64,000 nt of DNA, taken from Escherichia coli. Lineage in GTDB: Bacteria > Pseudomonadota > Gammaproteobacteria > Enterobacterales > Enterobacteriaceae. Location: assembly GCF_044647545.1 (NCBI RefSeq), contig NZ_CP172818.1; one strand, written 5' to 3'. This document shows, piece by piece, positions 55,261 through 56,093 of the stretch. Numbering within the stretch: position 1 is the stretch's first letter; each line of letters starts with the position of its first letter. Under the pieces are notes generated by a model. That model was given only the letters and a program-made list of their open reading frames with translations, was not told the DNA's origin and did not search any database. The translations under genes were made by a program, and so were the position numbers.

Positions 55261-55584
55261 ATGGCCCAACAATCACCCTATTCAGCAGCGATGGCAGAAC
55301 AGCGTCACCAGGAGTGGTTACGTTTTGTCGACCTGCTTAAGAATGCCTACCAAAACGATCTCCATTTACCGTTGTTAAACCTGATGCTGACGCCAGATGA
55401 GCGCGAAGCGTTGGGGACTCGCGTGCGTATTGTCGAAGAGCTGTTGCGCGGCGAAATGAGCCAGCGTGAGTTGAAAAATGAACTCGGCGCGGGCATCGCG
55501 ACGATTACGCGTGGATCTAACAGCCTGAAAGCCGCGCCCGTCGATCTGCGCCAGTGGCTGGAAGAGGTGTTGCTGAAACACTGA
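55261..55584 (+). CDS. trpR: tryptophan repressor
   Basis: 107-aa [96 protein letters not shown]; C-terminus is KH here, versus KSD in K-12 as I recall it. Confidence 0.85.
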
Positions 55585-56093
55585 TACACGGCATTATGAA
55601 ACGGACTCAGCGCCAGGATCACCGCCTGGTGATAGACGCTGGCGCGAGTGAGCTTCCCGGCGGTAAATACGCCGATTGCACCTTCTTTACGGCCAATTTC
55701 ATCAATGCCGGTATAACGCGACATCACAGGGCCGAGCGCCTCGCCTTCACGCACTTTCTCCAGAATCACCTCAGGCAACGGCAAAGTTGCCGAACGCGCT
55801 TCGCCACGCTGGCTGGCGTTTTCAATCACCACCCAACTGAAGGTGCTGTCACCATCAATGCCAGCTTCAATCGCCACCCAAAAATCAGCCTCTGGATGTA
55901 AACAGCGAGCATTTGCCACCCGATTTCGTGCGCCAGCGCGCGTTTCCTCACTACCAAAGGGCTGTTCCGGTACACCGCTCTCGACGGCAACGGATGCAAT
56001 ATGGCAGGAGCCTTCGCCGAAGATCTCGTGAAATGCCTGCAGAATGGCCTGAATTTTAGCGGGATTGGTGGTCGCACAGACAACTTGGTGCAT
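55347..56093 (-). CDS. yjjX: inosine/xanthosine triphosphatase YjjX, ORF C-terminally extended (expected stop near 55582 is absent)
   Basis: Starts [26 protein letters not shown]; homology ends at ...SPFHNAVY, then the ORF continues antisense through trpR to a TAG at 55347-55349. Confidence 0.7.

What the first reader, a model, noticed from the sequence alone, without database searches (positions are those of the whole stretch)
55347..55600. yjjX stop codon lost, giving an extended ORF antisense through trpR
Homology to the ~170-aa YjjX ends at ...SPFHNAVY, but the frame stays open for a further ~78 codons ([13 protein letters not shown]...) across the complementary strand of trpR. At the same place TrpR ends ...LLKH instead of ...LLKSD as I remember it. 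A small change at the trpR/yjjX stop overlap would explain both. This could be a real allele altering both proteins or a local sequence error.
Basis: partly seen in the sequence, partly recalled or inferred. Interest (0 to 1): 0.45.

Follow-up and report, generated by a model that had tools for sequence, protein, structure and literature searches.

The report
Three-base deletion removes yjjX stop codon
A 3-base deletion where the ends of the E. coli genes trpR and yjjX overlap removes the yjjX stop codon, but it occurs in a single public assembly that is visibly corrupted elsewhere, so it is probably a sequence error or at most a private mutation.

Summary
The yjjX frame (minus strand) runs 77 codons past its normal end, through the antisense of trpR, to a stop at 55347-55349. 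TrpR ends ...LLKH (107 aa).

The cause is one event: loss of GAT between 55578 and 55579. The baseline is this lineage's own allele, CTGAAAGATCACTGATAC, not K-12. In that common allele trpR (...LLKDH*) and yjjX (...AVYQ*) share a 7-nt overlap, TCACTGA, that holds both stop codons. Losing GAT keeps the trpR frame and stop but turns the yjjX stop TGA into TGT.

None of 5,426 complete E. coli genomes has this junction. The 107-aa TrpR sits on one NCBI contig of 4,499,902 bp, and the extended YjjX is in no protein collection.

Across 62,342 clean bases the window is identical to strain WP4-S18-ESBL-09 except for this deletion and one T>G 431 bp away. Both destroy GATC sites. The window also holds four patches of plainly corrupted sequence.

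I judge a local sequence or assembly error most likely (about 0.65) and a real private stop-loss deletion second (about 0.33). Reads are needed to decide. Either way it is of low interest.

The parts
55261..55584 (+). trpR coding sequence, 107 codons plus TGA stop (55582-55584); the product ends ...LLKH and lacks Asp107 of the parental ...LLKDH
   Evidence: ORF list; Pfam Trp_repressor covers residues 17-103; PDB TrpR chains align to residues 1-106; exact sequence is WP_400165105.1, on one contig
55581..56093 (-). yjjX conserved part, codons 1-171 (MHQVV...NAVYQ), identical in protein to the 171-aa YjjX of the closest genomes
   Evidence: Translation; exact 171-aa sequence found on at least 1000 contigs; PF01931 covers 7-165; 1U5W and 1U14
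55578..55579 (.). Deletion point: GAT is missing between these two bases relative to CTGAAAGATCACTGATAC. This turns the yjjX stop TGA (plus-strand TCA) into TGT and destroys a GATC (Dam) site. There is no flanking microhomology.
   Evidence: Pairwise alignments to 2013C-4282, 1532WA and WP4-S18-ESBL-09
55347..55580 (-). Read-through extension of yjjX: 77 codons ([12 protein letters not shown]...GKWRSFW) antisense to trpR codons ~30-107, plus TAA stop at 55347-55349
   Evidence: Translation; no Pfam family; no homologue covers it; 248-aa and 251-aa products absent from the 15-billion-protein collection
56010..56010 (.). The only other isolated difference from the nearest genome: T>G, GGATCC to GGAGCC. 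It is synonymous (Gly, GGA to GGC) in yjjX and also destroys a GATC site. On the minus strand it is an A>C at the Dam-methylated adenine.
   Evidence: the G variant is present in only 4 of 5421 genomes

Best explanation
The extended yjjX ORF is most likely a local consensus or assembly error in the deposited genome, namely a 3-base dropout (GAT) inside the 7-nt stretch TCACTGA, and not a feature of the living strain. In this lineage that stretch carries the stop codons of both convergent genes. Shown: deleting GAT leaves trpR in frame with its TGA, costing only Asp107. The same deletion removes the T of the complementary-strand TGA of yjjX, so the yjjX frame runs on to the next stop 77 codons later. 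Also shown: the parent allele, the uniqueness of the deletion, and the corrupted state of the assembly. Inferred: that the dropout arose during sequencing or assembly and not in the cell. The technology and the exact error mechanism are unknown.
For: (1) The deposit is demonstrably faulty. Within this 64-kb window four patches are garbage or have no counterpart in any E. coli genome: 10479-11425 (72% G, poly-G), 37796-37834, 45139-45181 and 50680-51303. Same-clone relatives are 5.06-5.17 Mb. (2) One corrupted stretch, 51169-51303, consists of multi-base dropouts of 1-4 nt, the same kind of lesion as the GAT loss. (3) Over 62,342 clean aligned bases the window is identical to WP4-S18-ESBL-09 except for this deletion and one SNP 431 bp away. 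Both hit GATC sites (joint chance about 5e-4) and they cluster (about 0.014), which is not the pattern of two independent random mutations. (4) The allele is private. The best of 5,420 matching genomes aligns at 97.1% with the 3-bp gap; all 19 genomes with identical flanks carry GATC; TrpR-107 is on one contig; the 248-aa and 251-aa YjjX are absent. (5) The deletion has no repeat or microhomology, the usual context of spontaneous small deletions (sequence). (6) Other recent assemblies carry different lesions at the same GATC: HS-01 has GAT>C and is a singleton. FCI1 and FCI17 come from one study and differ at 14 of 1300 bases, yet they share the same lesion.
Against: No reads are available, so this remains an inference. 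The kilobases flanking the deletion are error-free. The deletion is a clean, in-frame (for trpR) 3-bp loss, and NCBI accepted TrpR-107 as a protein. GATC is also a genuine mutational hot spot at the methylated adenine (PMC13250602), so the GATC coincidence does not by itself separate error from biology. The best-known technical cause of motif-linked errors is nanopore methylation miscalling, which mostly produces A<->G or T<->C ambiguities and not transversions or 3-bp deletions (PMC11610573; PMC11610603). HS-01 shows no general excess of GATC changes against a 99.2%-identical relative.
Confidence: 0.65

Rival explanations
1. The deletion is a real, strain-private mutation. GAT was lost in the cell, possibly after damage at the Dam-methylated adenine. 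The strain would make TrpR lacking Asp107, probably still functional. It would also make a 248-aa YjjX whose 77-residue Ser/Arg-rich tail is translated from the antisense of trpR, probably neutral to mildly harmful for the ITP/XTP-ase.
For: Flanks are clean and identical to the reference for kilobases. The deletion keeps trpR in frame. TrpR's last residues vary naturally (SD in K-12, DH here) and lie outside the Pfam domain, and several PDB constructs stop at residue 105-106. The YjjX C-terminus varies naturally at 170, 171, 173 and 176 aa. Enterobacter has 205-aa forms that read into antisense trpR, and one (P0137) is recorded on 3 contigs from NCBI, Logan and ENA. GATC is a known hot spot for real mutations at the methylated A, and the nearby SNP is at exactly that base pair. 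Two differences in 62 kb is a plausible distance between isolates of one clone.
Against: The allele is a singleton among 5,426 complete genomes and about 15 billion proteins. There is no microhomology. Two independent mutations both at GATC and 431 bp apart are jointly improbable. The assembly that carries them is corrupted elsewhere.
Confidence: 0.33
2. The 248-aa form is an established natural allele or ancestral state of yjjX in some E. coli lineage, not a recent change.
For: The trpR-yjjX junction is highly polymorphic in E. coli, with REP/BIME spacers present or absent.
Against: No other genome or protein carries it. Genomes identical to the window over 62 kb have the 171-aa form.
Confidence: 0.01
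3. The tail is a functional new domain or a regulated antisense-overlap gene product.
For: Only that the frame is open for 77 codons.
Against: The tail has no family, no homologue and no conservation. The same frame is open in all relatives, where a stop codon precedes it. Another antisense frame over trpR is also open for 68 codons.
Confidence: 0.01

Closest known systems
Spacer-less trpR/yjjX allele of E. coli (TrpR WP_000068675.1, 108 aa ...LLKDH; YjjX WP_022646480.1, 171 aa ...AVYQ), e.g. strains WP4-S18-ESBL-09, ECONIH1, MS6198, 2013C-4282
   Same: Identical sequence on both sides. Same convergent arrangement, with both stop codons inside TCACTGA. Both proteins are found on at least 1000 contigs.
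   Different: The window lacks GAT just upstream of CACTGA, so TrpR is 107 aa and yjjX has no stop at codon 172.
E. coli K-12 MG1655 trpR (b4393) and yjjX (b4394)
   Same: Same genes and order (slt-trpR-yjjX-ytjC-rob). YjjX is the ITP/XTP-ase crystallised as 1U5W.
   Different: K-12 has a 146-bp REP/BIME spacer and no overlap. TrpR ends LLKSD* and YjjX ends AVY* with TAA. It is therefore not the right comparator for the lesion.
Other junction lesions in public E. coli assemblies: HS-01 (AAACCACTGA; both genes called pseudogenes), FCI1/FCI17 (AAAACTGA; trpR pseudogene, YjjX 191 aa), Z1322HEC0009 (one-REP allele, yjjX stop lost)
   Same: Loss of the yjjX stop, and sometimes the trpR stop, at the same few bases. 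All are rare or private.
   Different: The sizes differ (net -2 and -4 nt) and so do the reading frames. Whether they are real is equally unknown.
Enterobacter YjjX of 205 aa (P0068, P0107, P0137)
   Same: A C-terminal extension of YjjX that reads through a REP element into the antisense of trpR. P0137 is recorded from NCBI, Logan and ENA on 3 contigs.
   Different: Different species, a different antisense frame (…FQQYRFQPLTQF…) and a 35-aa tail.
Motif-linked consensus errors of nanopore assemblies (PMC11610603, PMC11610573)
   Same: Rare residual errors concentrated at methylation motifs, including GATC in E. coli, within otherwise perfect sequence.
   Different: The reported errors are mainly purine-purine or pyrimidine-pyrimidine substitutions. 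Here there is a 3-bp deletion and a transversion, and the sequencing platform is unknown.
Dam-site (GATC) mutational hot spot (PMC13250602)
   Same: Real mutations are enriched at the methylated adenine of GATC, and the 56010 change is at that base pair.
   Different: The typical event is an A:T>T:A substitution. A repeat-free 3-bp deletion is not a described outcome.

Membership tests
YjjX / NTPase_I-T (PF01931) inosine/xanthosine triphosphatase | Full NTPase_I-T domain with near-identity to the crystallised E. coli enzyme | tested here: met
   PF01931 E=7e-52 over residues 7-165; 1U5W E=4e-107 over residues 1-171
YjjX / NTPase_I-T (PF01931) inosine/xanthosine triphosphatase | Single-domain protein of about 170-176 aa ending just after ...SPFHNAVY | tested here: not met
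   The ORF is 248 aa. E. coli family members are mostly 170-176 aa (rare 188- and 191-aa forms carry internal duplications); Enterobacter has 205-aa forms. No hit covers more than about 70% of the query
TrpR (PF01371) tryptophan repressor | Complete Trp_repressor domain | tested here: met
   PF01371 E=5.5e-29 over residues 17-103; the deletion lies after residue 106
Genuine inherited stop-loss allele | Present in two or more independent isolates or assemblies | tested here: not met
   0 of 5,426 complete genomes; TrpR-107 on one contig; extended YjjX absent
Genuine inherited stop-loss allele | Supported by the raw reads of the isolate | not testable with these tools
   The source record could not be retrieved and no read data are accessible
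Spontaneous small deletion by slippage | Flanking repeat or microhomology | tested here: not met
   In AAA|GAT|CAC only GAT can be removed to give the observed sequence, and there is no repeated base at the borders
Sequence or assembly artefact | The carrier assembly shows independent, unambiguous errors | tested here: met
   Four corrupted patches in the window, shown to be in the deposit itself
Nanopore methylation-motif error | Differences from the truth concentrate at methylation motifs | tested here: met
   2 of 2 isolated differences are in GATC; 283 sites in 62,342 bp; joint chance about 5e-4
Nanopore methylation-motif error | Error type is a transition-like ambiguity (A/G or T/C) and strand-specific in reads | tested here: not met
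   The observed changes are T>G and a 3-bp deletion, whereas PMC11610573 reports R/Y ambiguities. Strand specificity is not testable.
Nanopore methylation-motif error | The assembly was made from native nanopore reads | not testable with these tools
   No platform metadata are available for the source record

The most novel reading that the evidence does not exclude
The deletion is real, and the GATC inside the 7-nt double-stop overlap of convergent trpR and yjjX is a genuine recurrent indel hot spot. The window, HS-01 and FCI1/FCI17 carry three different lesions at the same four bases. Such a hot spot would repeatedly create stop-loss YjjX, and sometimes TrpR, proteins whose new tails are translated from the partner gene's antisense strand.
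Probability: 0.12. Interest if true: 0.35.

Novelty: not a real feature. Interest (0 to 1): 0.1.

Why it matters
As biology it matters little. At most, one strain carries a housekeeping nucleotide-cleansing enzyme with a junk tail and a repressor one residue shorter. It has practical value as a quality flag. The source assembly is a 4.50-Mb 'chromosome' from a clone whose other members are 5.06-5.17 Mb. It contains poly-G and poly-A garbage and unique filler where relatives have IS1, toxin-antitoxin and REP elements, so its singleton alleles and pseudogenes should not be trusted without reads. The case also shows how a two-stop overlap of convergent genes makes a single small indel affect two annotations at once. 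Finally, it shows that K-12 is the wrong reference for this polymorphic junction.

Tried and rejected
(1) K-12 as comparator: rejected. It has a 146-bp REP spacer and no overlap. My first K-12 coordinates, taken from memory, were wrong.

(2) Retrieving the source record through exact-protein look-ups of TrpR-107 and the garbled NadS: neither gene is on record in the contig index.

(3) A metagenome scan with a gapped pattern covering the wild-type and all lesion types gave 0 hits, even for the wild type. It is uninformative.

(4) Recombination import as the source of the two differences: rejected. Only two changes lie in the 431-bp span, and no potential donor carries the deletion.

(5) Testing whether HS-01 shows a general GATC error signature: its nearest relative is only 99.2% identical, and no enrichment was seen (3 GATC sites lost, including the junction itself, against about 4 mismatches expected by chance). 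This neither supports nor excludes an error there.

(6) Whether the HS-01 and FCI junction alleles are shared beyond their own studies: they are not.

(7) Nanopore Dam-methylation miscalling as the specific mechanism: considered the lead idea at first, then downgraded. Published error types are transitions, and corrupted patches at multi-copy elements fit short-read contig breaks or unpolished repeats at least as well.

(8) A functional tail domain: no Pfam family and no homologue.

Full report
**What is there.** The window carries the E. coli block slt-trpR-yjjX-gpmB-rob. On the plus strand trpR (55261-55584) encodes 107 aa ending LLKH. On the minus strand the yjjX frame starts at 56093 (MHQVV; an upstream ATG at 56102 gives the 251-aa ORF of the list). 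It runs to a TAA at 55347-55349, giving 248 aa. Residues 1-171 are YjjX. Pfam NTPase_I-T covers residues 7-165, and the crystal-structure sequences 1U5W and 1U14 align to residues 1-171. The last 77 residues ([12 protein letters not shown]...KWRSFW) are the antisense translation of trpR. They match no Pfam family, and no protein among 5.8 billion clusters covers them. K-12 TrpR ends LLKSD and K-12 YjjX ends NAVY*.

**What changed.** K-12 is not the right baseline. In K-12 a 146-bp REP/BIME spacer separates the two genes. The genomes closest to the window (2013C-4282, ECONIH1, MS6198, 1532WA, WP4-S18-ESBL-09) have a spacer-less junction, CTGAAAGATCACTGATAC. There trpR (108 aa...LLKDH*) and yjjX (171 aa...AVYQ*) overlap by 7 nt, TCACTGA, which holds both stop codons. 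Both of those proteins are common, each seen on at least 1000 contigs.

The window reads CTGAAA---CACTGATAC, with exactly GAT missing between 55578 and 55579. This removes Asp107 from TrpR without touching its frame or its TGA. It also removes the T of plus-strand TCA, so the yjjX stop TGA becomes TGT (Cys) and translation would continue for 77 codons. No other 3-base removal gives the observed sequence, and the borders share no microhomology.

**How common it is.** None of 5,426 complete E. coli genomes has this junction. The best full-length matches are 97.1% identical with the 3-bp gap, including all 19 genomes with otherwise identical flanks. The 107-aa TrpR exists once in about 15 billion proteins (WP_400165105.1, one contig of 4,499,902 bp). 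The 248-aa and 251-aa YjjX are absent. A homology search finds no YjjX that covers the tail.

**Context: how good the sequence is.** Aligned to WP4-S18-ESBL-09, the window has 62,342 clean bases with zero differences except the GAT deletion and one T>G at 56010 (GGATCC to GGAGCC, a synonymous Gly change in yjjX). The G variant occurs in only 4 of 5,421 genomes.

Four stretches are plainly corrupted:
- **10479-11425:** 72% G with long poly-G runs. It replaces 1,825 bp that hold the start of mdtM, IS1 and brnT/brnA.
- **37796-37834:** a T-free 39-nt filler.
- **45139-45181:** a few dozen garbled bases replace about 290 bp, including a 264-bp HTH gene.
- **50680-51303:** a smeared copy of relE/parE-nadS that decays into poly-A/T, followed by a dropout-rich stretch.

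The second and third patches have no counterpart in any complete E. coli genome. The 75-aa product of the garbled nadS is a singleton in the NCBI part of the protein collection, on a 4,499,902-bp contig. Same-clone relatives are 5.06-5.17 Mb, which suggests the 4.50-Mb contig is an incomplete or patched pseudo-chromosome.

**Error or biology.** Both isolated differences destroy GATC sites. With 283 GATC in 62,342 bp the joint chance is about 5e-4. They also lie 431 bp apart, with a chance of about 0.014. This is not what two independent random mutations look like.

A technical cause is attractive. Nanopore consensus errors concentrate at methylation motifs, GATC in E. coli among them (PMC11610603). 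But the documented errors are mostly A/G or T/C ambiguities (PMC11610573), not a transversion and a 3-bp deletion, and the platform is unknown. The corrupted patches sit at multi-copy elements, which fits short-read contig breaks or unpolished repeats as well as anything else.

GATC is also a genuine mutational hot spot at the methylated adenine (PMC13250602), and the 56010 change is at exactly that base pair. The motif coincidence therefore does not discriminate by itself.

Several points tip the balance towards error:
- The assembly is demonstrably unreliable.
- One of its corrupted stretches consists of the same kind of 1-4-nt dropouts.
- The deletion lies outside any repeat.
- The allele is private.
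- Other recent assemblies carry different private lesions at the same GATC. HS-01 has GAT>C, which breaks both genes. FCI1 and FCI17 come from one study and differ at 14 of 1,300 bases, yet they share AAAACTGA.

Against error stand the clean flanks, the in-frame nature of the deletion for trpR, and the lack of any general GATC signature in HS-01. I put an artefact at about 0.65 and a real private deletion at about 0.33.

**If it is real.** TrpR would probably be unaffected. The change lies after the Pfam domain (residues 17-103). The last two residues already differ between lineages (SD versus DH), and several crystallised constructs end at residue 105-106.

YjjX would gain a 77-residue Ser/Arg-rich tail with no relatives. 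The family tolerates some variation at this end: 170, 171, 173 and 176 aa in E. coli, and 205-aa Enterobacter forms that read through a REP element into antisense trpR in another frame. A 45% length increase is without precedent, though. The terminator scan found no terminator-like site at the junction in the spacer-less allele; its single hit lies inside yjjX on the plus strand and is within the number expected by chance. Antisense transcription over trpR would therefore not be new, only its translation.

**Verdict.** It is most likely an error in a flawed deposit and otherwise a private stop-loss mutation of a known kind. It is of low interest apart from the warning about the source assembly.

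Noticed in passing
window 10479-11425: About 950 bp of G-rich garbage (72% G, poly-G runs of more than 100). It replaces 1,825 bp that in the otherwise identical genome WP4-S18-ESBL-09 hold the 5' end of mdtM, a dienelactone-hydrolase fragment, IS1, brnT and brnA. ORF lists here show poly-Gly and poly-Pro artefact ORFs.
   Followed up: partly
window 50680-51303: A smeared copy of the relE/parE-nadS toxin-antitoxin locus. Errors grow into poly-A/T (50900-51008) and recover abruptly, followed by a second dropout-rich stretch at 51169-51303. The garbled 75-aa NadS product is a singleton NCBI protein on a 4,499,902-bp contig, so the corruption is in the public deposit.
   Followed up: yes
window 45139-45181: A few dozen garbled bases replace about 290 bp that in relatives include a 264-bp sigma-factor-like HTH gene between deoD and lplA. 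No complete E. coli genome matches across it.
   Followed up: partly
window 37796-37834: A 39-nt insertion with no T at all (AGCCGAGCCGAAGCGCACGCACGCAGCACAACGAGCCCC) replaces a single G next to a ~100-bp tandem REP-like repeat (37847-38053). No complete E. coli genome has it.
   Followed up: partly
window 56010: T>G turns GGATCC into GGAGCC (synonymous in yjjX). It is the only other isolated difference from the nearest genome and also destroys a Dam site. The same variant appears in only 4 of 5,421 genomes from two unrelated groups (17MR471 and three OkiPb strains).
   Followed up: partly
L006 1040-1290 (K-12), L012 140-250 (Nissle 1917), L011 640-720 (Z1322HEC0009), L001 1840-1945: The trpR-yjjX junction is a REP/BIME polymorphism hot spot in E. 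coli. Spacers of 146 nt, about 84 nt or about 45 nt, or a 7-nt overlap, give YjjX C-termini AVY*, AVYQAL* and AVYQ*, or a lost stop in Z1322HEC0009.
   Followed up: partly
L004 1530-1550 (HS-01); L005 1540-1560 (FCI17); L010 640-660 (FCI1): Three other assemblies have different lesions at the same junction GATC (AAACCACTGA and AAAACTGA), and PGAP calls pseudogenes there. Whether this is a real hot spot or a recurrent technical error is unresolved.
   Followed up: partly
protein P0053 (Logan contig, 1,136 bp): A 247-aa product joins YjjX residues 1-166 to TrpR residues ~30-108 in the sense orientation (...SPFHNA|[10 protein letters not shown]...). It is probably a chimeric short-read contig formed through the shared NA(V)Y motif.
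   Followed up: no
proteins P0068, P0107, P0137 (Enterobacter): YjjX homologues of 205 aa whose last ~35 residues are translated from a REP element and the antisense of trpR (…CRPDKAKPSSGVFQQYRFQPLTQF…). P0137 is recorded on 3 contigs from NCBI, Logan and ENA, a natural precedent for a YjjX tail overprinted on trpR.
   Followed up: no
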